The notes beneath the pieces are model-generated. The model saw nothing but the letters and a program-made list of their open reading frames with translations, was not told the origin of the DNA and made no database searches. From an uncultured Eubacteriales bacterium (GTDB lineage Bacteria > Bacillota > Clostridia > Lachnospirales > Lachnospiraceae), in contig OMZA01000009.1 in assembly GCA_900315425.1 (NCBI GenBank), positions 964 to 64,963 of the forward strand: DNA of 64,000 nucleotides, given 5' to 3'. This document shows positions 6,788 to 52,053 of the stretch, piece by piece (position 1 is the first letter of the stretch; each line of letters begins with the position of its first letter). Position numbers and translations under genes: made by a program.

Positions 6788-6862
6788 CGGGGTGTGGCTC
6801 AGCTTGGCTAGAGCGCTTGATTTGGGATCAAGAGGTCGCAGGTTCGAATCCTGTCACCCCGA
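6788..6862 (+). tRNA. tRNA-Pro(TGG)
   Basis: CGGGGTG acceptor, CTTGA-TTTGGGA-TCAAG anticodon arm. Confidence 0.95.
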
Positions 6863-6892
6863 CTTATCATAAATATTTGATATACTCATTTT

Positions 6893-6963
6893 GCGGGTGT
6901 AGTTCAATGGTAGAACACCAGCCTTCCAAGCTGGATACGTGGGTTCGATTCCCATCACCCGCT
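6893..6963 (+). tRNA. tRNA-Gly(TCC)
   Basis: GCGGGTG acceptor, CCAGC-CTTCCAA-GCTGG anticodon arm. Confidence 0.95.
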
Positions 6964-7008
6964 TTTATGCTGACTAATATGTATTTTGCGTATTTCTCAG
7001 TATGATGT

Positions 7009-7082
<74 letters not shown>

Positions 7083-7141
7083 TTTTACCTGTTATGTTTG
7101 ATGAATAAGAGTTGCTGAATGGCGACTCAATTCTTTTTTAT

Positions 7142-7217
7142 GGTGGGTATAGCGCAGTTGGTTAGCGCGCCAGATTGTGGCTCTGGAGGCCAAGGGTTCG
7201 AATCCCTTTATCCACCC
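7142..7217 (+). tRNA. tRNA-His(GTG)
   Basis: Encoded G-1, CCAGA-TTGTGGC-TCTGG anticodon arm. Confidence 0.95.
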
Positions 7218-7278
7218 TTTATTTCTCAATATTTTGTTTGCCGCTAATCAAAGATTGGTGGCTATATTTTTACAATTT

Positions 7279-7350
7279 TGGGCCATCGCCAAGCGGTAAG
7301 GCACAGGACTTTGACTCCTGCATTCGAGGGTTCGAATCCCGCTGGCCCAG
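7279..7350 (+). tRNA. tRNA-Gln(TTG)
   Basis: TGGGCCA/TGGCCCA acceptor, CAGGA-CTTTGAC-TCCTG anticodon arm; one A-G mismatch in the T-stem. Confidence 0.92.
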
Positions 7351-13825: not shown

Positions 13826-14689
13826 ATGTTAGTATCAGCAGAAGAGATGCTTAAAAAAGCAAAAGCTGGACACTACGCAGTAGGTCAGTTCAATATCAAC
13901 AATCTTGAGTGGACAAAGGCTGTTTTATTAACAGCTCAGGAACTTAACTCACCAGTTATCTTAGGTGTATCTGAAGGTGCTGGAAAGTACATGACAGGAT
14001 TTAAGACAGTAGCAGCGATGGTTAAAGCTATGGACGAATCCCTTGGAATTACAGTTCCAGTTGCACTTCATTTAGATCATGGTACATATGAAGGATGTTA
14101 CAAATGTATCAAAGCAGGATTCACATCTATCATGTTTGATGGTTCTTCATACTCAATTGAAGAGAACGTTGAGAAGACAAAAGAGTTAGTTAAGGTTGCA
14201 GAGGCTATGGGACTTTCAATCGAGGCTGAAGTTGGATCAATTGGTGGAGAAGAAGATGGAGTTATCGGTGCTGGAGAATGTGCAGATCCAAACGAATGTA
14301 AGATGATTGCAGACCTTGGAGTAACAATGCTTGCAGCAGGTATCGGAAATATCCATGGAAAATATCCAGACAATTGGGCTGGACTTTCATTTGACACTCT
14401 TGCAGCTATCCAGGAGAAGACAGGTGAGATGCCATTAGTTCTTCATGGTGGTTCAGGTATTCCAGATGAGCAGATTAAGAAAGCTATTGATCTTGGAGTA
14501 TCAAAAGTTAATGTTAATACAGAGTGTCAGTTAGTATTTGCTGATGCTACTCGTAAATACATTGAAGCTGGAAAAGACCTTGAAGGAAAAGGATTTGATC
14601 CTCGTAAATTACTTGCTCCAGGTTTTGAAGCTATTAAAGAAGAAGTTAAAGTTAAAATGGAATTATTCGGATCAGTTGGAAAGGCTTAA
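13826..14689 (+). CDS. fba: Class II fructose-1,6-bisphosphate aldolase
   Basis: VALHLDHG, MFDGS, EAEVG, GNIHG, LVLHGGSG, KVNVNTE. Confidence 0.96.
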   Translation: MLVSAEEMLKKAKAGHYAVGQFNINNLEWTKAVLLTAQELNSPVILGVSEGAGKYMTGFKTVAAMVKAMDESLGITVPVALHLDHGTYEGCYKCIKAGFTSIMFDGSSYSIEENVEKTKELVKVAEAMGLSIEAEVGSIGGEEDGVIGAGECADPNECKMIADLGVTMLAAGIGNIHGKYPDNWAGLSFDTLAAIQEKTGEMPLVLHGGSGIPDEQIKKAIDLGVSKVNVNTECQLVFADATRKYIEAGKDLEGKGFDPRKLLAPGFEAIKEEVKVKMELFGSVGKA

Positions 14690-14727
14690 TTGCTTTTAAC
14701 ATAGGATTCATATAATTACGAATATTA

Positions 14728-14770
14728 AAGAACTAAGTTTTGTATCTATGCAGAGCTTAGTTCTTTTTTT
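14728..14770 (+). terminator. Intrinsic terminator after fba
   Basis: AAGAACTAAGTTTTG...CAGAGCTTAGTTCTT plus T-tract. Confidence 0.8.
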
Positions 14771-14931
14771 GATTAGACAATTGGTGAAAATGTATAAAAT
14801 AATGTATTCAAATATAGATGTTTTGTATAAAATTACAAAAACAACTATGAAGAAAATATTAATTTATGTATAATGTATCTAGGTTAATGGGGTAGTTTAT
14901 AAAGAGTATTAAGAGAGAGATAAAAGGAGAA

Positions 14932-16842
14932 GTGTATACTATGCATATAACAAGCTTTTTTAAGAACAAGTTGGTTATGTGTTGGGTAGTATTGCTGGTT
15001 TTCGTATTTGGATTTTTGTTGATACCAAGATTGTTTAATAAAGAGAGCGAAGCTGACATTTCAGATAAAAATGCAGCACAATATGGATTGCAGGCGAAGG
15101 TCCAGGACGGAGTCATATTAGATTGCTGGGGTTGGTCTTATGAGACTATTAGAAATAATCTTGTAGATATAGCAGCGGCAGGATATTCAGCAGTACAGAC
15201 ATCACCAGTGCAAAAACCAACTGATTACGATGCTGGAGAAACCGGTATGGGTGATCAATGGTGGAAGCTTTATCAGCCGGTAAGTTTATCCATTGCGGAT
15301 ACGTCTTGGTTGGGAACAAAAACAACTTTAAAAGAATTATGCAGTGTAGCAGATAATTATGGAATTAAAGTAATAGTAACAATCGAAGCTAACAATATGG
15401 GAAGTGGAGATGATTCAACTTCTTTAAATGAAGATGTAGAAAATTATGAAAGTCAGATATATAACGATTATGGACAGTATTTTCATACATATATTTCTTA
15501 TGATAATACCTCTGTTCAGGGGATAGTTCAGGGGAATACCGGCTCGCCGGATCTTAACACCGCTAATAGTTACGTTCAAAACAGAGTGGGTAAGTTATTA
15601 TGTGATTGTATAGATTTGGGAGTTGATGGTTTTAGATTTGAAGATGCAAAGTGTATAGAGACTTCAGGAGATAGTTATTATAGTTCCAGCTTTTTTGAAA
15701 CTGTAATAGGAAGAGCTAGAAATTATGCAAAGTCAAAGGGTAAAAGAGTTTATTTCTATGGAGTTATTCTTGGTGATCCGGGACCTGAAAGAAGCTACAG
15801 TAATTATGCTGCAAATATGCATGTAACTGATACGAGAACAGGACAGGCAATTATGTCAGCCATAACTGATAAAAAGGCTTCAGATGCAGCTTCTACACAC
15901 ATATATAGTGATTTGGACACAGATGAAATTGTATTGTGGGCAGAATCTTATGAATCATACATGGGTTTAAATAATACAGATGGAATTAAGTCAACAAAAT
16001 CCATCTCAGAAGCTGATGTTAATAAGGCATGGGCTCTTGTAGGTAATGTAAAAGGTGCAACAGCTATTTACTATGCAAGACCTTCGGATACTATAGGAAG
16101 TACAGGGTCTAGCGCATGGATGTCTGATGAGGTAATAGCAATCAATAAGTTCCATAATGCATTTATAAATGCTGAGGAGCACACAAGTTCAGATGGCGAC
16201 ATTGTTATAAAAGAGAAAAAGATTTCATCTGGCGATGATAATGATGGAATTATTCTGGTAAATGTTAATGGCATGGAAGCTGACGTTGAAGTTAAGGCTG
16301 ATAATGTTGAAAAGGGAGATTATGTGGATGAAATAACTGGTAATTTATTCAAACTTGAACAGGGTAAATTAACAGGAACCATAGGTGATACAGGTATTGC
16401 TGTTTTATATTGTAAGAGTGAAAAGGAAATGACTACTTATGATGGTTCAAAAGCAGATTCTGATAACGGTGACAGTACAAAAGAGTCAAAATCAGGTCAG
16501 GATGTTTACGAAACTAAAGAATCATCTGTAAAAGAAATTGAAGTGGCAGCTGGTGAACAGATTATCTATTTCAATACGGAAAAATGTGATTGGTTTAAGG
16601 AAAAAAATACCATTCCGGTTCTAAAGGCTGAAGACGGGGAATATATTGAAATGGTTCAAATTGATGATTACTTGTATTACGTTAGTATTAAAGATACAGT
16701 TAAATCAGTTGTTATTGCTAGATTATCAGCAGAGGGAAATATCGAAAAACCATACAGCACGTCTATTCCTTCTGGAAAAAATATTTATTCGGCAGTTAAA
16801 GATTGGTCAGGTGGAGGAACTTGGAGTTCAACCAATAACTAA
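14932..16842 (+). CDS. Membrane-anchored GH13 alpha-amylase homologue (AmyE-like) with substituted catalytic residues and a possible C-terminal starch-binding module
   Basis: N-terminal TM helix; ILDCWGWSY...AGYSAVQTSP, WWKLYQP, PDLNT, GVDGFRFEDAKCIE, YGVILGD, WAESYESY; C-terminal IYFNTEKCDW segment. Confidence 0.8.
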   Translation: MYTMHITSFFKNKLVMCWVVLLVFVFGFLLIPRLFNKESEADISDKNAAQYGLQAKVQDGVILDCWGWSYETIRNNLVDIAAAGYSAVQTSPVQKPTDYDAGETGMGDQWWKLYQPVSLSIADTSWLGTKTTLKELCSVADNYGIKVIVTIEANNMGSGDDSTSLNEDVENYESQIYNDYGQYFHTYISYDNTSVQGIVQGNTGSPDLNTANSYVQNRVGKLLCDCIDLGVDGFRFEDAKCIETSGDSYYSSSFFETVIGRARNYAKSKGKRVYFYGVILGDPGPERSYSNYAANMHVTDTRTGQAIMSAITDKKASDAASTHIYSDLDTDEIVLWAESYESYMGLNNTDGIKSTKSISEADVNKAWALVGNVKGATAIYYARPSDTIGSTGSSAWMSDEVIAINKFHNAFINAEEHTSSDGDIVIKEKKISSGDDNDGIILVNVNGMEADVEVKADNVEKGDYVDEITGNLFKLEQGKLTGTIGDTGIAVLYCKSEKEMTTYDGSKADSDNGDSTKESKSGQDVYETKESSVKEIEVAAGEQIIYFNTEKCDWFKEKNTIPVLKAEDGEYIEMVQIDDYLYYVSIKDTVKSVVIARLSAEGNIEKPYSTSIPSGKNIYSAVKDWSGGGTWSSTNN

Positions 16843-16905
16843 AAAGTGATATAATAGTGAGCAAATACATGAAGATGTGTTTGCTCATTAATTTTTTAGG
16901 GGTGA

Positions 16906-17319
16906 TTGAGTATGAAAAAAAGAATACTAGCTTATTTAAGTTATGTTGACGGAATTATTGCAAAGGAAAAGAAGGATAAGAATCAGAATCTGGATTTGGT
17001 AATTGAAAGGCATTTGGTGCAAATTGCTTTTTTTGCGCATGAAAGATTCATACATTTAGTGGTAACTGTGTTATTTGCACTGGGTACATTGTTGTCGATA
17101 TTTACATTTTTAGCTACAGGGCAGGCATCAATCTTAGCATTGATTGTAATGCTTTTGGTTTTATTGGTGCCTTATGTAATGCATTATTATCTTTTAGAAA
17201 ATGGTGTTCAGAAAATGTATACTCAATACGATGAGTTATTAAAGCTTCAGTATGAAAAAGATGGAAAGAAATTAGAGTTGGAAAAAGGAAAGTACGAGGT
17301 ATTTACAGTTGAAGGATGA
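16906..17319 (+). CDS. Small conserved-type membrane protein
   Basis: Two hydrophobic helices between HERFIHL and HYYLLENGVQK. Confidence 0.7.
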   Translation: MSMKKRILAYLSYVDGIIAKEKKDKNQNLDLVIERHLVQIAFFAHERFIHLVVTVLFALGTLLSIFTFLATGQASILALIVMLLVLLVPYVMHYYLLENGVQKMYTQYDELLKLQYEKDGKKLELEKGKYEVFTVEG

Positions 17320-19681
17320 GAAGTTAGCATTATCCATATCTGTAAGGGAATTAGTTGAATTTATTATGAGGTCCGGAGACATAGACAATAGGACTACATC
17401 TCAGGTAGGAATTGAGGCTATGTTAGAAGGAAGCCGGTTACATAAATGGATACAGGATTCCATGGATGACAATTATCATCCGGAAGTGTCCATGAAAACA
17501 ATCTGGGATGCCACAGACTATTCTATAACTGTTGAAGGTAGAGCAGATGGTGTGATTATAGATGATGGAAGATATATCATTGATGAGATAAAAACTATGT
17601 ATGCTTCCCTGGAGAAAATGTCAAAACCTTTAACTGTACATAAAGCACAGGCAATGTGTTATGGATATATGTGCGTAGTTAAATATGATTTGAAAAACAT
17701 TGGTATCCAGATGACATATTGTAATATTTCAGATAAAACGATAAAAAGATTTAATTATGAATATGAATCTGAAGAGATTATAAAATGGTTTGGTGAATTG
17801 ATGGAGAAATACATTCGATTCACCGACTTTGTTTTTAAGGAAAAAGACAGGGTAGTAAATTCCATACAACCTTTGGAGTTTCCGTTTGAATACAGACCTG
17901 GTCAAAAACAAGTAATGTCGTATGTGTATAGTGCTGTGGATTCCCAGGAAAATTTATTTATACAGGCACCCACAGGGGTTGGAAAAACTATATCAGTAAT
18001 ATATCCGGCTTTGAAAAATATCGGAAACAAAAAAGCTGATAAGATATTTTATTTGACAGCTAAGACTGTAACTAGAAGTGTTGCCATGGAAACTTACGAT
18101 ATCCTCAGGAAGGCAGGACTTCATTTTAAAACCATAGCCCTGACGGCGAAAGAAAAGATTTGCCCTATGGAAGAAATGGTGTGTAACCCTGTTAAATGCA
18201 TTAGAGCCAAGGGTCATTTTGACAGAATTAATGAAGCAATATATGACATCATAACTCATGAGCAGGGTATTAATAGAGAAATTATTGAGAAGTATGCCCT
18301 AAAGCATAACGTATGTCCTTTTGAAATGAGTTTGGATGTTAGTAATTTTATGGACGGAATTATATGTGACTATAATTATGTCTTCGATCCTAGCGTCAAG
18401 TTAAAAAGATATTTTACAGATGGGATTCAGGGAAATTATGTTTTTTTAGTTGACGAGGCACATAATCTGGTGGACAGAGCAAGAGAGATGTACAGTGCAT
18501 CCTTAACAAAAGAGGATTTTTTACAGGTTAGGAAAATAGTTGAGCCAATTGATAAACATGTGGCGAAATGTCTGCTTAGATGTAACAGAAAAATGTTGGA
18601 ATTAAAAAGGCAATGTGTGGGAACAGGAAAATATACCTACACCATTATAAGCGAAACGGATGAGCTTAATAGTAGTTTAAAACAGTTGGAATCTGCTATG
18701 GAAAACATGTTGGATAAACATAAAGAATTTCATGACAGGGAAACAACTATGGATTTATATTTTTCTATAAAGAAATATCTGGAAATACATTCCATGGCGG
18801 ATAGTTGTTATATTCACTATACGGATTTTAAAGACAATGGAGATTTTTTTGTAAAACTGTTTTGCGTTAATCCTTCAAATAACTTAAAAGATTGCATGAA
18901 TACCGGGCTATCTACTATTTTATTTTCGGCTACGTTGTTACCGGTGAATTTTTATAAGGAGATGTTAAGCGGAAATTCTAATGATAAGGCGATTTATATA
19001 AATTCACCTTTTGATGTGAGAAAGAGATATCTTGGAGTATCTAGGGATGTAAGCAGTAGATATGACAGAAGAAACCAAAGAGAATATGAAAAAATAATAA
19101 AGACTATAGAAAATGTGGTATCTCAATGTCAGGGGAATTATATGGTGTTTTTCCCATCTTATAAATATATGCAGGATATTAAGGAATTAATTGATGATAT
19201 GGGGAGGCTTAAAAATGCCAATATAATAATGCAACAAAGGGAAATGGATGAAATTGCCAAAGAAAATTTTCTTGATGAGTTTAAAGATTATGGAAGTGAA
19301 ATTAAAATAGGGTTTTGCGTGTTAGGTGGCGTTTTTTCTGAGGGTATTGATTTAAAAAATGAATGTCTTATTGGCAGCTTAATCATAGGAACAGGACTTC
19401 CTATGATTAATTCAGAGGGAGAAATTTTAAAGAATTATTTCGATGAGCATAACAAGAACGGATTTAACTATGCGTATAGATACCCCGGAATGAATAAAGT
19501 TGAACAGGCAGCAGGCAGGGTTATTAGAACCAGCGAGGATTACGGAGTAATTATTTTAATGGATGACAGATTTTTAAATTGGGATTATAAAGGTTTATTT
19601 CCAAGGGAGTGGAGTGATTATAAGGTTATTGATTGTGAAAGCGTTGGGGAAGATGTTAAACACTTCTGGCGTTACGTTTGA
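17309..19681 (+). CDS. DinG/Rad3-family Fe-S helicase with N-terminal PD-(D/E)XK-like domain
   Basis: EGRADG...IDEIKT, QAPTGVGKT, Cys cluster, VDEAHNL, FFPSY, EGID, QAAGRVIR. Confidence 0.88.
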   Translation: MKDEKLALSISVRELVEFIMRSGDIDNRTTSQVGIEAMLEGSRLHKWIQDSMDDNYHPEVSMKTIWDATDYSITVEGRADGVIIDDGRYIIDEIKTMYASLEKMSKPLTVHKAQAMCYGYMCVVKYDLKNIGIQMTYCNISDKTIKRFNYEYESEEIIKWFGELMEKYIRFTDFVFKEKDRVVNSIQPLEFPFEYRPGQKQVMSYVYSAVDSQENLFIQAPTGVGKTISVIYPALKNIGNKKADKIFYLTAKTVTRSVAMETYDILRKAGLHFKTIALTAKEKICPMEEMVCNPVKCIRAKGHFDRINEAIYDIITHEQGINREIIEKYALKHNVCPFEMSLDVSNFMDGIICDYNYVFDPSVKLKRYFTDGIQGNYVFLVDEAHNLVDRAREMYSASLTKEDFLQVRKIVEPIDKHVAKCLLRCNRKMLELKRQCVGTGKYTYTIISETDELNSSLKQLESAMENMLDKHKEFHDRETTMDLYFSIKKYLEIHSMADSCYIHYTDFKDNGDFFVKLFCVNPSNNLKDCMNTGLSTILFSATLLPVNFYKEMLSGNSNDKAIYINSPFDVRKRYLGVSRDVSSRYDRRNQREYEKIIKTIENVVSQCQGNYMVFFPSYKYMQDIKELIDDMGRLKNANIIMQQREMDEIAKENFLDEFKDYGSEIKIGFCVLGGVFSEGIDLKNECLIGSLIIGTGLPMINSEGEILKNYFDEHNKNGFNYAYRYPGMNKVEQAAGRVIRTSEDYGVIILMDDRFLNWDYKGLFPREWSDYKVIDCESVGEDVKHFWRYV

Positions 19682-23625: not shown

Positions 23626-24534
23626 ATGAGTATCAATGATTTTGGTCAAAAAGAAGGACCTATTAAGAGATTTGCCTTATGGATAAAAGATAAGGTTAAG
23701 GAAGATATTGAAGAATTAAGAAGTCATAGCAAACAATACATTGTAAAAGAGTTAATTAGACGTTTGGTAATGGTAGGTGCGTTGCTGGTATTTACATATT
23801 CTTCCTACGAAGTATCTGGTATGATTTTGGATTATAAAGAAGATAAAAAGGAATACCAGAATATGGAAGAGATGTTTGAAATTCCTAATATAGATGGAAG
23901 TAGTGATAGCGGCGATGGTACTGTAAAGGGTTCTACTATCTCCAATTCCAATCAGGAAAATGTATGGAAATATGACTACAACGCTTTAGTTAATATGAAT
24001 CCAGATGCAGTAGGCTGGATAAAACAGGAAAATATTATCAGTTATCCAATAGTTATGGGGACTGATAATACATATTACCTAAAACATAATGCAGCTCATA
24101 GGGAAAATGGAGCAGGGTCGATATTCGTAGACTATAGAATAGATGGCGGATTAGATGGTTGGAATTGTATTATTTATGGCCATGATATGAAGGATTATTC
24201 TATGTTTGGTAGTCTGACAAAGTATATGGAGAAATCCTATGCAGACGCTCACCCTACATTTGATATATACATTGGAGATGTAGGCTATAGATATTATGTG
24301 TTTGCTGCATATGAGACAGATGCAGTAGGAGATACTTACTCGTATAATTTTGTAGATGAAGGTGAATTCATTAACTATGTTAATCTGGTTTGCATGCCTC
24401 AGAGAAGATATGAAACAGAGATTAAAGAAATAGTTGGTACAGATAAAATTGTAACTTTATCTACATGTACAAGAAATGGACGTAACGAAAGAAGATTCGT
24501 AGTCCAGGCAGTAAGAAGGGAACAGATAACCTGA
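23626..24534 (+). CDS. srtB: Class B sortase
   Basis: N-terminal TM, NPDAVGWI, YPIVMG.DN.YYL, IYGHDM, TLSTC, RFVV. Confidence 0.85.
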   Translation: MSINDFGQKEGPIKRFALWIKDKVKEDIEELRSHSKQYIVKELIRRLVMVGALLVFTYSSYEVSGMILDYKEDKKEYQNMEEMFEIPNIDGSSDSGDGTVKGSTISNSNQENVWKYDYNALVNMNPDAVGWIKQENIISYPIVMGTDNTYYLKHNAAHRENGAGSIFVDYRIDGGLDGWNCIIYGHDMKDYSMFGSLTKYMEKSYADAHPTFDIYIGDVGYRYYVFAAYETDAVGDTYSYNFVDEGEFINYVNLVCMPQRRYETEIKEIVGTDKIVTLSTCTRNGRNERRFVVQAVRREQIT

Positions 24535-29182: not shown

Positions 29183-29255
29183 TGGCCCATCGCCAAATGG
29201 TAAGGCACTGGACTCTGACTCCAGCATTTTCCAGGTTCGAATCCTGGTGGGCCAG
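29183..29255 (+). tRNA. tRNA-Gln(CTG)
   Basis: TGGCCCA/TGGGCCA acceptor, CTGGA-CTCTGAC-TCCAG anticodon arm; terminator CTTCACTAC...GTAGTGAAG-T8 follows. Confidence 0.95.
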
Positions 29256-49970: not shown

Positions 49971-50332
49971 TGCGTCTTTTGACTCATAATGTGCTGAATT
50001 ATTCTGAAGTACTTGAAAGCAGCATGCGTTCTTCGGAATGCCTGCTGTTTTTTGTTATCAGCATTGATAACGATCTGATTTACACATAAGGTTACGGTGG
50101 TGGGGAGCAATACCCGCCGCTTTTTCTGTATGCAGCATTCCTTTTGTTGCGGCTTACGGGGTAGTATTATTGAACTTGAGCATGTCGTAGGTCTCATCCG
50201 AATCGAACAGCTGGTACATGAGTCTTATTGTTTGCATGACCGCATGACGGCATAAAAGCACTTGAATATTTTTGGGGTACTTTTTTTTGGCTTTATATTG
50301 ACAAAATGCAGAAAAGATGTATTATAATTAAT

Positions 50333-50356
50333 GTTATATAACGATAGTTACATAAC
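50333..50356. promoter_or_regulatory. Tandem palindromic boxes, likely TetR operator
   Basis: GTTATATAAC (50333-50342) and GTTACATAAC (50347-50356) between promoter and SD. Confidence 0.5.
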
Positions 50357-50369
50357 GGAAAGGAGAAAA

Positions 50370-50963
50370 ATGTGTATGCCGCCCAAAACAAGAATTACGA
50401 AAGACATGATCATAAATGCGGCTATTGAGATTGCAAAACAAAGTGGATATGAGAGCATCAACGCCAGGACAGTCTCTGAGCAGCTCCACTGTTCCACGCA
50501 GCCGGTCATGTATCATTTTTCGACAATTGATGCCTTGAAACGGGCTTCTTACGCACAAGTTGATCATCTGCATTCAAAGTATCTGATGACGATGATACCG
50601 GAACAGGATCCGATCCTTGGGATAGGCTTGAATTATATCCGTTTCGCCGTGGAGGAGCCTCAGTTATTCCGCTTCCTGTTTCAGTCCGGATATGCGGTGG
50701 AGCACAGCTTGTTGGAGATGATCGATTCCGAAGAACTGATCCCGGTCCTTATTGCCATGCAAGAGGGCACCGGATTGAGCATGGAAAAAACCAAGCAGAT
50801 ATTTCTGACCGTGGCGCTGTTTGCGCACGGCTATGCCAGCATCATTGCCAACAATGGTCTGGAATATGACGAAAAACTGGTCGCGGAGCACCTGGAACGG
50901 GCCTGGAACGGTGCTTTTCTCGTGGCTGTGCAGGAGGAGAAGAAACATGAAAAAAATGTATGA
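50370..50963 (+). CDS. TetR/AcrR-family regulator
   Basis: ITKDMIINAA.....SGYESINARTVSEQLHCSTQPVMYHF; start placed at ATG 50370; higher GC. Confidence 0.88.
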   Translation: MCMPPKTRITKDMIINAAIEIAKQSGYESINARTVSEQLHCSTQPVMYHFSTIDALKRASYAQVDHLHSKYLMTMIPEQDPILGIGLNYIRFAVEEPQLFRFLFQSGYAVEHSLLEMIDSEELIPVLIAMQEGTGLSMEKTKQIFLTVALFAHGYASIIANNGLEYDEKLVAEHLERAWNGAFLVAVQEEKKHEKNV

Positions 50964-51696
50964 AAAAAGTGAGATTACCTTTGCAATCCTATGGATCGTG
51001 ATCTACGCGGTGGGCATGGGGACGCTGCAAAACAATTTCGGCCTCGATTCGCTGTGGCACATGCTCGGCCTGATCGTGATATCCGCAGCGATTTTCCTGT
51101 TTGTGAAAAAGAACGGGCTCATGGAAGTGTACGGCCTGGCCGGCTGGGCGAAGAACAGCAGAGCCGTGCTGTGGTTCATTCCTTTGTGGTTCCTCTCTTG
51201 TATGAATCTCTTAAGCGGATTTCAGCATGATTATCCTGTACCGGGACTGTTCTATGCCGTTGTATCCATGGCTTTGGTCGGATTTGCAGAGGAACTGATC
51301 TTCCGAGGCTTCCTGTTCAAAGCCATGCTGAAGGACGGCAATGTGAAAGCAGCCGTCATCGTTTCCTCCGTCACCTTCGGGATGGGACATATTATAAATC
51401 TTTTTACCGGACATGAGCTGATTGCCACCCTCATCCAGGTGGTTTTCGCGGTTGCCATGGGCTTTGTCTTTACGCTCGTTTTTTACAAGAGCGGGAGCCT
51501 TCTGCCCGGGATCCTGGCGCACAGCTTCATCGACGTAACCTCTGTCCTCGCATCCGACGAAGGCTCCCAGTCTATGAATTTGATCGTGCATATCGTGGTC
51601 ATTGTCGTATCTGTAGTCTACAGCCTGTATCTGGCAAAACGCGTTGAGACGCCGGCAATCAATCGGACAGACACAAAACAGGAGAATCTGGCATGA
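50947..51696 (+). CDS. CPBP (CAAX/Abi) intramembrane metalloprotease
   Basis: EELIFRG, FGMGH, GILAHSFID motifs; start placed at ATG 50947. Confidence 0.88.
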   Translation: MKKMYEKSEITFAILWIVIYAVGMGTLQNNFGLDSLWHMLGLIVISAAIFLFVKKNGLMEVYGLAGWAKNSRAVLWFIPLWFLSCMNLLSGFQHDYPVPGLFYAVVSMALVGFAEELIFRGFLFKAMLKDGNVKAAVIVSSVTFGMGHIINLFTGHELIATLIQVVFAVAMGFVFTLVFYKSGSLLPGILAHSFIDVTSVLASDEGSQSMNLIVHIVVIVVSVVYSLYLAKRVETPAINRTDTKQENLA

Positions 51697-51845
51697 AAAA
51701 ATCATTCATTGGTGGAATGGCTTTAGGGGCATTTCTGGTATCGCTGATCCCGTACAGAGTTCAGACACACGAAAAGACCGGTTATGCATTTGCCATTCCT
51801 CCGTCCGGACTGGACGAACAATATTTCCTAAACGGAATCAGTTAA
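51693..51845 (+). CDS. Short, possibly truncated membrane or exported protein (50 aa, MKKSFIGGMALGAFLVSLIP...)
   Basis: ATGA overlap with the CPBP stop and GGAG SD; ends just before a guaA-end copy. Confidence 0.4.
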   Translation: MKKSFIGGMALGAFLVSLIPYRVQTHEKTGYAFAIPPSGLDEQYFLNGIS

Positions 51846-51853
51846 GTCCTGTC

Positions 51854-51865
51854 GAGATGGAATAG
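51854..51865 (+). repeat. guaA 3'-end copy 2 (attR-like)
   Basis: GAGATGGAATAG at the high-GC to low-GC transition. Confidence 0.72.
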
Positions 51866-51923
51866 ATAAATGTATTTTATAAAATACTTATTGACTGTGC
51901 TGATAAATACGGGATATAATATT

Positions 51924-52053
51924 AAAGGTTTAGGGAGTAGCTCGCATAGGTATTATGCGATATATTTCGTCAGTACGGGATTTAATCCCCGGGATATGTC
52001 ATAAGTAGCGAGACTTTACCACAGTTTATCTGTGGTGGAGTCTCGCTTTTTTT
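51924..52053 (+). promoter_or_regulatory. yybP-ykoY (Mn2+) riboswitch with terminator expression platform
   Basis: GGGAGTAGC, CGTCAGTACGGG...CCCGG, AGCGAGACTTT; terminator GCGAGAC...GTCTCGC-T7; promoter TTGACT-18-TATAAT at 51891-51920. Confidence 0.82.

What the first reader, a model, noticed from the sequence alone, without database searches (positions are those of the whole stretch)
14932..16842. Pseudo-amylase: membrane-anchored GH13 with all catalytic residues replaced but an intact ORF
Seen, compared with the B. subtilis AmyE conserved regions from memory: region II GFRFDAAKH becomes GFRFEDAKC (nucleophile Asp to Glu237), region III YGEIL becomes YGVIL (acid/base Glu to Val278), region IV WVESHD becomes WAESYE (His to Tyr, Asp to Glu341), and region I loses its His. 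The 636-aa frame, TM anchor, beta-sandwich, linker and aromatic C-terminal module are all retained. Four independent site changes without frameshifts suggest selection for a non-catalytic role. Inference: a surface starch/maltodextrin-binding or sensing protein, or a scaffold for other enzymes.
Basis: partly seen in the sequence, partly recalled or inferred. Interest (0 to 1): 0.68.

Follow-up and report, generated by a model that had tools for sequence, protein, structure and literature searches.

The report
Conserved catalytically dead secreted amylase homologue
A rumen Lachnospiraceae bacterium carries a secreted amylase look-alike that has lost its key catalytic residues yet has been kept intact by selection in five related lineages, so it most likely does a non-enzymatic job, probably sugar binding, that remains to be tested.

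Summary
The ORF (most likely ATG 14941 to 16842, 633 aa; the GTG at 14932 sits too close to the ribosome-binding site) encodes a protein closest to B. subtilis AmyE and R. bromii Amy16 (GH13_28). The nucleophile Asp is Glu, the acid/base Glu is Val, the transition-state Asp is Glu, and three active-site His are Asn, Cys and Tyr. The invariant Arg remains.

It is not a decaying gene:
- The positional orthologue in Lachnospiraceae bacterium RM5 (49% identity, same fba/helicase/purL synteny) and three further lineages are also degenerate.
- The five form one clade (98/100 bootstrap) nested among more than 180 intact amylases.
- dN/dS is 0.14-0.34 between lineages.
- Within the species there are 14 synonymous against 4 non-synonymous polymorphisms (P = 4e-7).

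The barrel and domain B are the most constrained part. The C-terminal module is an undescribed ~100-aa beta-sandwich. It is rare (47 clusters), occurs with GH13, CBM26 and pilin-adhesin domains, and is nearest in fold to CBM41.

"Membrane-anchored" is unproven, because a conserved signal-peptidase-like site follows the hydrophobic segment. The function is inferred: most likely a non-catalytic alpha-glucan-binding protein. It is a new variant of a known kind (pseudo-glycosidase).

The parts
14727..14766 (+). Terminator-like hairpin plus T-run after the upstream aldolase gene (fba, 13826-14689). It separates the pseudo-amylase from fba.
14774..14803 (+). Promoter-like site (TAGACA-18-AATAAT). 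This is a consensus match only. A perfect TATAAT also lies at 14869-14874.
   Evidence: the number of promoter-like sites in the region is no higher than in shuffles, so this is weak
14926..14930 (+). Ribosome-binding site AGGAG, 10 nt upstream of ATG 14941 and 1 nt upstream of GTG 14932.
14941..16842 (+). Coding sequence of the pseudo-amylase (633 aa plus stop). The mechanical ORF starts at GTG 14932 (636 aa).
14971..15057 (+). N-terminal hydrophobic segment (residues 11-29, LVMCWVVLLVFVFGFLLIP) followed by S-E-A|D (residues 36-39). It is either a Sec signal peptide or a signal anchor; this is unresolved.
15088..16419 (+). GH13 (GH13_28-like) fold: (beta/alpha)8 barrel, domain B (about residues 151-212) and beta-sandwich domain C (about 406-493).
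   Evidence: TM-score 0.90 on 1UA7, rmsd 2.6 A
15259..15276 (+). WWKLYQ loop, equivalent to AmyE W58-Q63, the sugar-stacking platform of alpha-amylases. W107, K109 and Y111 are invariant in all five pseudo-amylase lineages.
   Evidence: the role of these residues is from established knowledge of alpha-amylases
15379..15396 (+). Region I, TIEANN (consensus DIVxNH). The Asp is Thr, the Val is Glu and the His is Asn.
15628..15654 (+). Region II, GFRFEDAKC (consensus GFRFDAAKH). The Arg is kept, the nucleophile Asp is Glu, the Ala is Asp and the His is Cys.
15757..15771 (+). Region III, YGVIL (consensus YGEIL). The acid/base Glu is Val.
15937..15957 (+). Region IV, WAESYES (consensus WAESHDT). The His is Tyr and the transition-state Asp is Glu.
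16420..16551 (+). Disordered Ser/Lys/Asp/Glu-rich linker. Most within-species amino-acid variation falls here.
16552..16839 (+). C-terminal 'X module', a ~100-aa beta-sandwich with no Pfam, NCBIfam or PDB sequence match. It keeps the module's invariant residues: the Tyr of YF, then C, W, F, M, Y, R, W, GG, W.
16855..16890 (+). Terminator-like hairpin plus T-run after the stop codon, so the gene looks monocistronic.

Best explanation
The gene encodes an exported, catalytically dead descendant of a GH13_28-type extracellular alpha-amylase. An ancestor of a small group of rumen/gut Lachnospiraceae lost the transition-state Asp and two active-site His. The lineage leading to this window and to strain RM5 then also lost the acid/base Glu and the region I Asp and His. 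This window additionally changed the nucleophile Asp to Glu.

The protein has since been kept as a folded, expressed product by purifying selection. Its most likely job is non-enzymatic ligand binding outside the cell, and the most likely ligand is an alpha-glucan (starch or maltodextrin). Two elements would do the binding: the retained cleft platform (W107, Y111, R232, K237 and domain B) and the C-terminal CBM-like X module.

What is shown:
- homology and fold;
- loss of the catalytic residues;
- monophyly of the degenerate clade;
- conserved synteny;
- purifying selection;
- association of the X module with starch-active proteins.

What is inferred:
- absence of hydrolytic activity;
- the ligand;
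- the cellular location (free or anchored).
For: **Homology and fold.** AmyE and Amy16 match at E about 1e-52. Foldseek gives TM-score 0.90 on 1UA7. The model has pLDDT above 90 over residues 50-493.

**Dead site.** D176E, E208V, D269E, H102N, H180C and H268Y, against 116-118 of 120 homologues with the canonical residues. The AmyE triad is Asp176/Glu208/Asp269 (PMC8927782).

**Not a pseudogene.**
- The fba, gene, small protein, helicase, purL, sortase order is the same in RM5 and in the P0003 genome, and the gene, small protein, helicase part is also seen on the shorter P0144 contigs.
- The five degenerate lineages are monophyletic, 98/100 bootstrap.
- dN/dS is 0.30-0.34 (Q vs RM5), 0.14-0.19 (P0003 vs P0012) and 0.17 (P0135 vs P0144).
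- Six haplotypes give 14 synonymous against 4 non-synonymous sites, P = 3.8e-7.
- The 14 complete listed members of the 64-member cluster are all 633 aa, and none differs from the representative at a degenerate catalytic position.
- At the observed dS, a neutral frame would be expected to carry about 100 stop codons.

**Where the constraint lies.** The barrel and domain B are the most constrained part (identity 54-66%, omega 0.14-0.22, similar to the neighbouring helicase at 0.25). W107, K109, Y111 and R232 are invariant in all five lineages. 108 of 136 family-conserved positions are kept.

**X module.** Its signature residues are kept. Its partners are GH13, CBM26, dockerin and pilin-adhesin domains. 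Its nearest fold is CBM41, then CBM48-type domains.

**Transcription.** Rumen metatranscriptome contigs cover parts of the ORF.
Against: - No binding or activity data exist.
- The -1 subsite is heavily remodelled. Two longer Glu, a Tyr and a new Glu149 may fill it, so canonical glucan binding across the cleft may be lost.
- RM5 has additionally changed W108R, Q112E and K237G, and P0012 has deleted most of domain B. The cleft is therefore not uniformly preserved across the clade.
- This protein has lost the CBM26 that its sister lineages and active relatives carry.
- The X module's similarity to CBM41 is weak (E = 4e-3, TM 0.62) and its ligand is unknown.
- The genomic context here is housekeeping, with no maltodextrin transporter or other amylase in the 64 kb.
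- RNA coverage is low (depth 2-5) and DNA carry-over cannot be excluded.
Confidence: 0.55

Rival explanations
1. It is a partner or regulatory pseudoenzyme. The dead amylase binds another protein rather than a glycan, for example an active amylase, a transporter or another surface protein, and activates, scaffolds or localises it. Plant BAM9 does this with AMY3, ISA2 with ISA1, and the GH13-like ectodomains of 4F2hc/rBAT with SLC7 transporters.
For: - The barrel and domain B, not the CBM-like module, carry the strongest constraint.
- Several clade-specific replacements are shared by this window and RM5: V149E, W252F, H337Y, D338E.
- The precedents are real (PMC12046210 and PMC8537225, found).
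- If uncleaved, an N-terminal hydrophobic segment plus a GH13 ectodomain mimics the 4F2hc topology.
Against: - No candidate partner is encoded next to it here. The gene is monocistronic between two terminators.
- No other GH13 lies in the window.
- No close active paralogue from RM5 appeared among the 80 best genome loci.
- The protein derives from GH13_28, not the GH13_34/35 lineage of 4F2hc/rBAT.
Confidence: 0.2
2. It is an extracellular carbohydrate sensor feeding a signalling pathway (two-component or c-di-GMP).
For: - In the three sister lineages (P0003, P0012, P0144) the pseudo-amylase is followed by a cytoplasmic GGDEF-EAL protein. A weak receiver-domain match at its N-terminus was seen only in the P0003-lineage copy (25 bits, below the Pfam cut-off).
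- In the P0003 and P0144 loci a divergently transcribed orphan OmpR-type response regulator lies upstream. The P0012 contig does not reach far enough upstream to show this.
- The arrangement is kept although the proteins are only about 53% identical.
Against: - This window and RM5 have neither neighbour.
- Only about 10 residues precede the hydrophobic segment, so there is no cytoplasmic signalling domain.
- The intact relative P0004 also sits next to a response regulator (43% identical to the one beside P0003) plus a histidine kinase. The simpler reading is that the regulators control expression of the (pseudo-)amylase gene.
Confidence: 0.1
3. It is still an enzyme with residual or new chemistry, for example Glu234 acting as nucleophile, or a non-hydrolytic activity in a remodelled acidic pocket (E149, E234, D235, E338).
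For: - The pocket keeps or gains acidic residues.
- The barrel is the most constrained region.
- The sister lineage P0003 still has both the nucleophile Asp and the acid/base Glu.
Against: - The acid/base position is Val here and Ala in RM5.
- The transition-state Asp and all three active-site His are gone.
- The replacements differ between lineages at the same positions: H180 becomes C, L, N, Y or G, and D269 becomes E, E, S or T. That is the pattern of relaxed constraint at the old site, not of a redesigned one.
Confidence: 0.07
4. It is a decaying pseudogene, or a neutrally drifting relic that happens to be open.
For: - It is the fastest-evolving gene of its neighbourhood (49% identity to RM5, against 53-87% for its neighbours).
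- It scores below the Pfam gathering threshold.
Against: - The frame is open in five lineages, and every haplotype and complete cluster member examined is full length.
- omega is 0.14-0.34.
- The synonymous excess within the species has P = 3.8e-7, and P(no stop) under neutrality is about 1e-47.
- The model is confident.
- The gene has its own RBS and terminator.
Confidence: 0.02

Closest known systems
GH13_28 extracellular alpha-amylases (B. subtilis AmyE, PDB 1BAG/1UA7/3DC0; R. bromii Amy16, PDB 9QF9)
   Same: - Same fold (TM-score 0.87-0.90) and about 30% identity.
- Recognisable conserved regions I-IV.
- The region II Arg, the WxxLYQ platform and the Asn101/Asp146 calcium ligands are kept.
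- N-terminal export signal.
- A modular C-terminal extension.
   Different: - The nucleophile, acid/base and transition-state residues and three active-site His are all replaced.
- It scores below the Pfam PF00128 threshold.
- It has no CBM26 or dockerin.
Closest intact relatives in the databases (P0004, P0005, P0011: signal peptide, GH13, Ig-like domain, one or two X modules, CBM26)
   Same: - 38-40% identity over 95-98% of the length.
- Same N-terminal signal region and same X module.
- They belong to the group of active amylases that is sister to the pseudo-amylase clade in the tree.
   Different: - They keep all catalytic residues and a CBM26.
- P0004 sits next to a histidine kinase and response regulator pair.
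4F2hc (CD98hc) and rBAT, the GH13-like heavy chains of heteromeric amino-acid transporters
   Same: GH13-fold ectodomains that have taken on a non-glycosidase role after a single N-terminal membrane segment. 4F2hc lacks the catalytic residues.
   Different: - They are eukaryotic and derive from the oligo-1,6-glucosidase-like subfamilies (GH13_34/35).
- They are disulphide-linked to a transporter.
- No such partner or linking Cys is conserved here, since RM5 lacks the Cys.
Plant non-catalytic starch-metabolism proteins (ISA2 in GH13; BAM4 and BAM9 in GH14)
   Same: They are inactive members of amylolytic families, are kept by selection, and act by binding glucan or an active partner enzyme.
   Different: They are intracellular (plastidial) and eukaryotic, come from different subfamilies, and have known partners.
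Non-catalytic starch-binding surface proteins of gut Firmicutes (R. bromii Sas6 and Sas20)
   Same: They are exported, non-catalytic, starch-associated modular proteins in gut anaerobes. Some X-module proteins found here (CBM26 plus X, no GH13) have this type of architecture.
   Different: Sas proteins are built from CBMs and dockerins, not from a degenerate catalytic domain.
CBM41 and CBM48 alpha-glucan-binding modules (for the C-terminal X module only)
   Same: Beta-sandwich of about 100 residues. The best Foldseek hits are T. maritima PulA CBM41 (2J72, TM 0.62) and the N-terminal domains of GH13 trehalohydrolases and pullulanases. It occurs in starch-active proteins.
   Different: - No sequence similarity was detectable by HMM.
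- It has a different signature (YFD-x3-C-x-WF ... AR ... W-x-GG-x-W).
- Binding is untested.

Membership tests
GH13 (alpha-amylase family), as a homologous fold family | (beta/alpha)8 barrel with domain B inserted after beta3, and a C-terminal beta-sandwich domain C | tested here: met
   The AF2 model has pLDDT above 90 over residues 50-493. Foldseek gives TM-score 0.90 and rmsd 2.6 A to 1UA7.
GH13 (alpha-amylase family), as a homologous fold family | Recognisable conserved sequence regions I-IV, including the invariant Arg of region II | tested here: met
   Regions align column for column with 119 homologues, and R232 is kept.
GH13, as an active retaining glycosidase or transglycosidase | Catalytic triad: Asp nucleophile (region II), Glu acid/base (region III), Asp transition-state stabiliser (region IV) | tested here: not met
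   The three positions are E234, V275 and E338. The triad is defined for AmyE as D176/E208/D269.
GH13, Pfam PF00128 membership | Score at or above the curated gathering threshold (22 bits) | tested here: not met
   18.3 bits, E = 0.0015, with only residues 127-243 matched.
GH13 subfamily 28 | Closer to characterised GH13_28 members than to other subfamilies | tested here: inconclusive
   The best solved relatives are AmyE and Amy16, at about 180 bits against 48 bits or less for other amylases. Amy16 is called GH13_28 in PMC12663171. No CAZy or dbCAN subfamily model was available to run.
Pseudoenzyme (non-catalytic homologue retained by selection) | Loss of essential catalytic residues shared by orthologues | tested here: met
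   Five lineages are degenerate and monophyletic.
Pseudoenzyme (non-catalytic homologue retained by selection) | Purifying selection and an intact frame | tested here: met
   omega is 0.14-0.34; polymorphisms are 14 synonymous to 4 non-synonymous, P = 3.8e-7.
Pseudoenzyme (non-catalytic homologue retained by selection) | Demonstrated absence of the ancestral activity | not testable with these tools
   This needs an enzyme assay of the recombinant protein.
Starch-binding CBM (CBM41/CBM48-like), for the X module | Sequence membership of a described CBM family | tested here: not met
   No Pfam, NCBIfam or PDB sequence hit. CAZy's own CBM models were not available.
Starch-binding CBM (CBM41/CBM48-like), for the X module | Beta-sandwich CBM fold similar to alpha-glucan-binding modules | tested here: inconclusive
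   The model has pLDDT 94. The best hit is 2J72 CBM41, TM 0.62, E = 4e-3, and no hit reaches E = 1e-3.
Starch-binding CBM (CBM41/CBM48-like), for the X module | Binding of alpha-glucan | not testable with these tools
   There is only guilt by association. Among the 27 carrier proteins scanned against Pfam, most carry GH13 and/or CBM26, and three are pilin-type adhesins.
4F2hc/rBAT-type transporter heavy chain | GH13_34/35 ectodomain disulphide-linked to an SLC7-type light chain | tested here: not met
   The nearest relatives are GH13_28. There is no adjacent transporter. The only Cys near the hydrophobic segment is not conserved in RM5.
RsgI-type anti-sigma polysaccharide sensors of Clostridia | N-terminal cytoplasmic anti-sigma domain before the membrane segment | tested here: not met
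   Only 10 residues precede the hydrophobic segment.

The most novel reading that the evidence does not exclude
The clade may be a bacterial case of a glycoside hydrolase turned into a dedicated non-enzymatic extracellular receptor. In this reading the remodelled, newly acidic former active site (E149, E234, D235, E338, Y337) no longer binds alpha-glucan. It has acquired a new ligand or protein partner, and in the sister lineages it works together with the adjacent orphan response regulator and GGDEF-EAL protein (weak receiver-domain match) to couple an extracellular cue to c-di-GMP signalling. Separately, the X module may be a new starch-binding CBM family.
Probability: 0.12. Interest if true: 0.8.

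Novelty: new variant of a known kind. Interest (0 to 1): 0.5.

Why it matters
- **Annotation.** Automatic annotation calls these proteins alpha-amylase (RM5 is named so). CAZyme counts for these rumen Lachnospiraceae therefore overstate their starch-degrading capacity.
- **An evolutionary series.** The clade runs from intact amylase, to loss of the transition-state Asp and two His, to loss of the acid/base and further residues, all at one syntenic locus. That makes it a useful system for studying how a secreted glycosidase is converted to a non-catalytic protein.
- **Tractability.** RM5 is listed as a named strain rather than a metagenome-assembled genome, so if it is in culture the function could be tested directly.
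- **A candidate new CBM family.** The X module is rare, well folded and associated with GH13, CBM26 and pilus-adhesin proteins. It is a candidate new carbohydrate-binding family for starch-active proteins of gut Firmicutes.

Tried and rejected
1. **Profile search with the X-module alignment in the word-indexed protein database.** It returned only a 99-aa fragment of the query and was uninformative. The exhaustive HMMER search replaced it.
2. **Metagenome-contig scan.** It found only one close relative (99% identity) and otherwise active amylases, so it gave no new intermediate lineages.
3. **Genome-contig scan.** The window's own species is not among the species representatives, and RM5 is the nearest genome. 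I could not scan RM5 or the window organism for active paralogues.
4. **A second profile search with the five pseudo-amylases.** All 68 newly listed proteins have intact motifs, so the clade stays at five lineages.
5. **Literature searches for a described bacterial GH13 pseudo-amylase.** Nothing was found for this clade. The hits were plant BAM/ISA and animal 4F2hc/rBAT analogues.
6. **Rfam scan.** No riboswitch or regulatory RNA lies near the gene.
7. **Lipoprotein anchoring.** Rejected by eye, because the Cys lies inside the hydrophobic segment without a lipobox and is not conserved.
8. **Sortase anchoring.** Rejected. There is no LPXTG at the C-terminus, although a sortase gene lies 7 kb downstream.
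9. **Coupling to the downstream small membrane protein.** Judged unlikely. A terminator lies between them, and the small ORF overlaps the helicase start.
10. **Mapping changed residues onto the model surface.** This was not possible, because model coordinates are not exposed to the script tool.
Full report

Yes. A single open frame runs from 14932 to 16842 on the + strand.

The ribosome-binding site AGGAG (14926-14930) is 1 nt from the GTG at 14932 and 10 nt from the ATG at 14941. Public gene calls for the identical protein use the ATG (P0001, 633 aa). I therefore take 14941-16842 as the gene.

The gene has terminator-like hairpins before it (14727-14766, after fba) and after it (16855-16890), so it looks monocistronic.

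**2. What is it homologous to?**

- Pfam gives only a sub-threshold alpha-amylase match (18.3 bits against a cut-off of 22).
- A direct search of solved structures gives B. subtilis-type AmyE (3DC0, 1BAG, 1UA7) and the GH13 domain of Ruminococcus bromii Amy16 (9QF9) at E about 1e-52 over residues 47-495. All other amylases score far lower.
- Amy16 is described as a GH13_28 member, like the B. subtilis enzyme (PMC12663171).
- An AlphaFold model built from 56 homologues has pLDDT above 90 across the barrel, domain B and domain C. It superposes on 1UA7 with TM-score 0.90.

**3. The catalytic residues.**

I rebuilt the AmyE numbering from the printed 1BAG alignment. The catalytic triad is Asp176, Glu208 and Asp269 (PMC8927782). 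1BAG itself shows Gln at position 208 where the native 3DC0 sequence has Glu.

| AmyE residue | Role | This protein (633-numbering) |
|---|---|---|
| Asp176 | nucleophile | Glu234 |
| Glu208 | acid/base | Val275 |
| Asp269 | transition-state stabiliser | Glu338 |
| His102 | active-site His | Asn152 |
| His180 | active-site His | Cys238 |
| His268 | active-site His | Tyr337 |
| Asp97 | region I Asp | Thr147 |
| Arg174 | invariant Arg | Arg232 (kept) |

Among 120 aligned homologues, 116-118 carry the canonical residue at each of these columns.

**4. Do orthologues share the changes?**

This is the key test, and they do. The four nearest relatives are also degenerate.

| Protein | Region I | Region II | Region III | Region IV |
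|---|---|---|---|---|
| P0002 (Lachnospiraceae bacterium RM5, 50%) | E.E..K | D S . . L | Ala | Y E |
| P0003 (45%) | intact | D C . . N | Glu | Y S |
| P0012 (40%) | intact | E S . . Y | Glu | Y T |
| P0144 | His lost | FRFSNVKG | YVELD | LMTENGY |

- The changes common to the four aligned lineages are at the His268, Asp269, His180 and Ala177 equivalents. That points to one ancestral inactivation followed by further erosion.
- A neighbour-joining tree of the amylase domain puts the five together in 98 of 100 bootstraps. The clade is nested among intact amylases and is sister to a group that includes P0004, P0005 and P0011.
- A profile search seeded with the five found no further degenerate members among 68 additional proteins. 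The clade is therefore small.

**5. Orthology by position.**

| Genome | Gene order |
|---|---|
| This window | nadB, nadC, fba, pseudo-amylase, small two-helix membrane protein, DinG-like helicase, purL, sortase |
| RM5 | nadB, nadC, fba, pseudo-amylase, small protein, helicase in the 14-kb locus read |
| P0003/P0135 genome | fba, response regulator (minus strand), pseudo-amylase, GGDEF-EAL, small protein, helicase, purL, sortase |
| P0144 contigs | response regulator, pseudo-amylase, GGDEF-EAL, small protein, helicase |

The gene has therefore stayed at one locus while these species diverged. Their aldolases are 87% identical and their helicases 53%, against 49% for the pseudo-amylase (window versus RM5).

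**6. Selection.**

- *Within the species.* Six haplotypes from rumen metagenomes differ at 18 sites in the ORF, 14 synonymous and 4 non-synonymous. With 79% of sites non-synonymous, so few non-synonymous changes has P = 3.8e-7 under neutrality.
- *Cluster members.* The 14 complete listed members of the 64-member 90% cluster are all 633 aa. Their amino-acid differences fall mainly in the linker, at residue 4 and at residue 167, and never at the degenerate catalytic positions.
- *Between lineages.* dN/dS is 0.30-0.34 (window versus RM5), 0.14-0.19 (P0003 versus P0012) and 0.17 (P0135 versus P0144). dS is saturated, so these are rough values.
- *Neighbouring genes.* They give 0.07-0.25 over the same comparison.
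- *Neutral expectation.* At one substitution per site, a neutral frame of this length would be expected to collect about 100 stop codons.

The 'neutral relic' reading is excluded.

**7. Where is the constraint?**

Between the window and RM5, the two halves of the barrel and domain B are the best conserved parts (54-66% identity, omega 0.14-0.22). Domain C (44%), the linker (30%) and the C-terminal module (38%) are looser.

Of 136 positions that are at least 90% conserved in 52 active relatives, this protein keeps 108. It keeps the WWKLYQ loop, the equivalent of the Trp58/Tyr62/Gln63 sugar platform of alpha-amylases (established knowledge). W107, K109, Y111 and R232 are invariant in all five lineages. 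The Asn101 and Asp146 calcium ligands (by alignment) are also kept.

This argues that the old catalytic domain itself, and not only the appended module, carries the retained function.

Against a simple 'still binds starch in the cleft' reading:
- RM5 has changed W108, Q112 and K237.
- P0012 has deleted most of domain B.
- The -1 pocket now holds two longer Glu, a Tyr and a new Glu149.

**8. The C-terminal module.**

Residues 538-633 match nothing in Pfam, NCBIfam or PDB by sequence. The module is shared with the other pseudo-amylases. It is also shared with intact relatives, where one or two copies sit between the amylase and a CBM26.

An exhaustive HMMER search of 1.84 billion representatives found only 47 proteins with it. 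Their other domains are GH13, CBM26, dockerin and Listeria-Bacteroides repeats. In three cases they are SpaA/FctA pilin domains typical of sortase-assembled adhesins.

Modelled alone, the module gives a confident beta-sandwich (pLDDT 94). Its best structural neighbours are the CBM41 of Thermotoga maritima PulA (TM 0.62, E = 4e-3) and CBM48-type N-domains of GH13 enzymes. No hit reaches E = 1e-3.

The window's copy keeps the module's invariant residues. I read it as a probable ligand-binding, CBM-like module, most likely for alpha-glucan. That is association, not proof.

**9. Export and anchoring.**

Residues 11-29 are hydrophobic. They are followed by S-E-A|D at residues 36-39. This aligns with T-K-A|A or A-K-A|A in the intact relatives, which looks like a conserved signal-peptidase I site.

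There is no LPXTG, dockerin, lipobox or CBM26.

**10. Expression.**

The sequence occurs in many bovine and sheep gut or rumen metagenomes. Four metatranscriptomes hold contigs covering parts of the ORF at depth 2-5. That is similar to the helicase and 10-100 times below fba. This is consistent with low-level transcription, but DNA carry-over cannot be ruled out.

**11. Context.**

No other GH13 and no maltodextrin uptake genes lie in the 64 kb, and no riboswitch is nearby.

In the P0003 and P0144 loci the gene sits between an orphan OmpR-type response regulator and a cytoplasmic GGDEF-EAL protein. The shorter P0012 contig shows only the GGDEF-EAL gene downstream. A weak receiver-domain match (25 bits, below the Pfam cut-off) was seen at the N-terminus of the P0003-lineage GGDEF-EAL protein only.

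The intact relative P0004 has a histidine kinase and a response regulator (43% identical) in the same upstream position. The most economical reading is therefore inherited transcriptional control, not sensing by the pseudo-amylase.

**12. Verdict.**

The protein is a GH13_28-derived pseudoenzyme, conserved under purifying selection in a small monophyletic clade of rumen/gut Lachnospiraceae.

The most likely mechanism is non-catalytic extracellular binding of alpha-glucan through the retained cleft platform and the X module. I put this at roughly even odds. The main rivals are:
- a protein-partner role, by analogy with BAM9, ISA2 and 4F2hc/rBAT (PMC12046210, PMC8537225);
- a sensor role;
- residual or new chemistry.

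Non-catalytic homologues of glycosidases are a known kind. I found no description of a bacterial GH13_28 lineage of this type in the searched literature. I therefore rate it a new variant of a known kind, of moderate interest. The X module is a secondary lead.

Noticed in passing
window 16552-16839; also P0004, P0005, P0011, P0042 and P0145-P0186: An undescribed ~100-aa beta-sandwich 'X module' with the signature YFD-x3-C-x-WF ... AR ... W-x-GG-x-W. Only 47 representative proteins among 1.84 billion carry it. It is combined with GH13, CBM26, dockerin, Listeria-Bacteroides repeats or SpaA/FctA pilin domains, and its nearest fold is CBM41. It is a candidate new carbohydrate-binding family.
   Followed up: yes
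L167 8693-15030; L171 402-6269; L165; L166: In the P0003 and P0144 loci the pseudo-amylase sits between a divergently transcribed orphan OmpR-type response regulator and a cytoplasmic GGDEF-EAL protein. The P0012 contig (L166) shows only the GGDEF-EAL gene downstream. The P0003-lineage copy has a weak receiver-domain match. The intact relative P0004 (L170) has a histidine kinase and response regulator in the same place. Both neighbours are absent from the window and from RM5.
   Followed up: partly
P0012 (L166 184-2550): This pseudo-amylase has a deletion of about 42 residues that removes most of domain B. Even so, dN/dS against P0003 is 0.14-0.19.
   Followed up: partly
window 16906-17319: A small predicted two-helix membrane protein (137 aa, TTG start in the mechanical ORF). 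Its end overlaps the start of the helicase gene. It is conserved in the same position in RM5 (61% identity) and in the P0003 and P0144 genomes. It has no Pfam or NCBIfam family.
   Followed up: partly
window 17309-19681: A DinG/Rad3-type helicase (DEAD_2 and Helicase_C_2) with a weak N-terminal PD-(D/E)XK nuclease match. It evolves as fast as the pseudo-amylase between the window and RM5 (53% identity).
   Followed up: no
window 14932 vs 14941: The mechanical ORF starts at a GTG 1 nt after the Shine-Dalgarno sequence. The ATG 9 nt downstream has proper spacing and is the start used in public gene calls.
   Followed up: yes
window 6788-7350 and 66-235, 29183-29255: Eight tRNA genes, five of them in a cluster at 6788-7350. 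The cluster lies upstream of a queuosine-precursor gene set on the minus strand ending at about 9710 (GTP cyclohydrolase I, radical-SAM, PTPS and QueC families).
   Followed up: no
window 50001-52000: A local G+C rise (0.46 against about 0.35 elsewhere) with low GC skew. No Rfam match lies there.
   Followed up: no
window 23626-24534: A sortase gene lies directly after purL. It is conserved in the same position in the P0003 genome. The pseudo-amylase has no LPXTG motif.
   Followed up: partly
P0002 (RM5) source names: Public annotation names the RM5 orthologue 'alpha-amylase' although it lacks the acid/base Glu, the transition-state Asp and the active-site His. This is a likely over-annotation.
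   Followed up: yes
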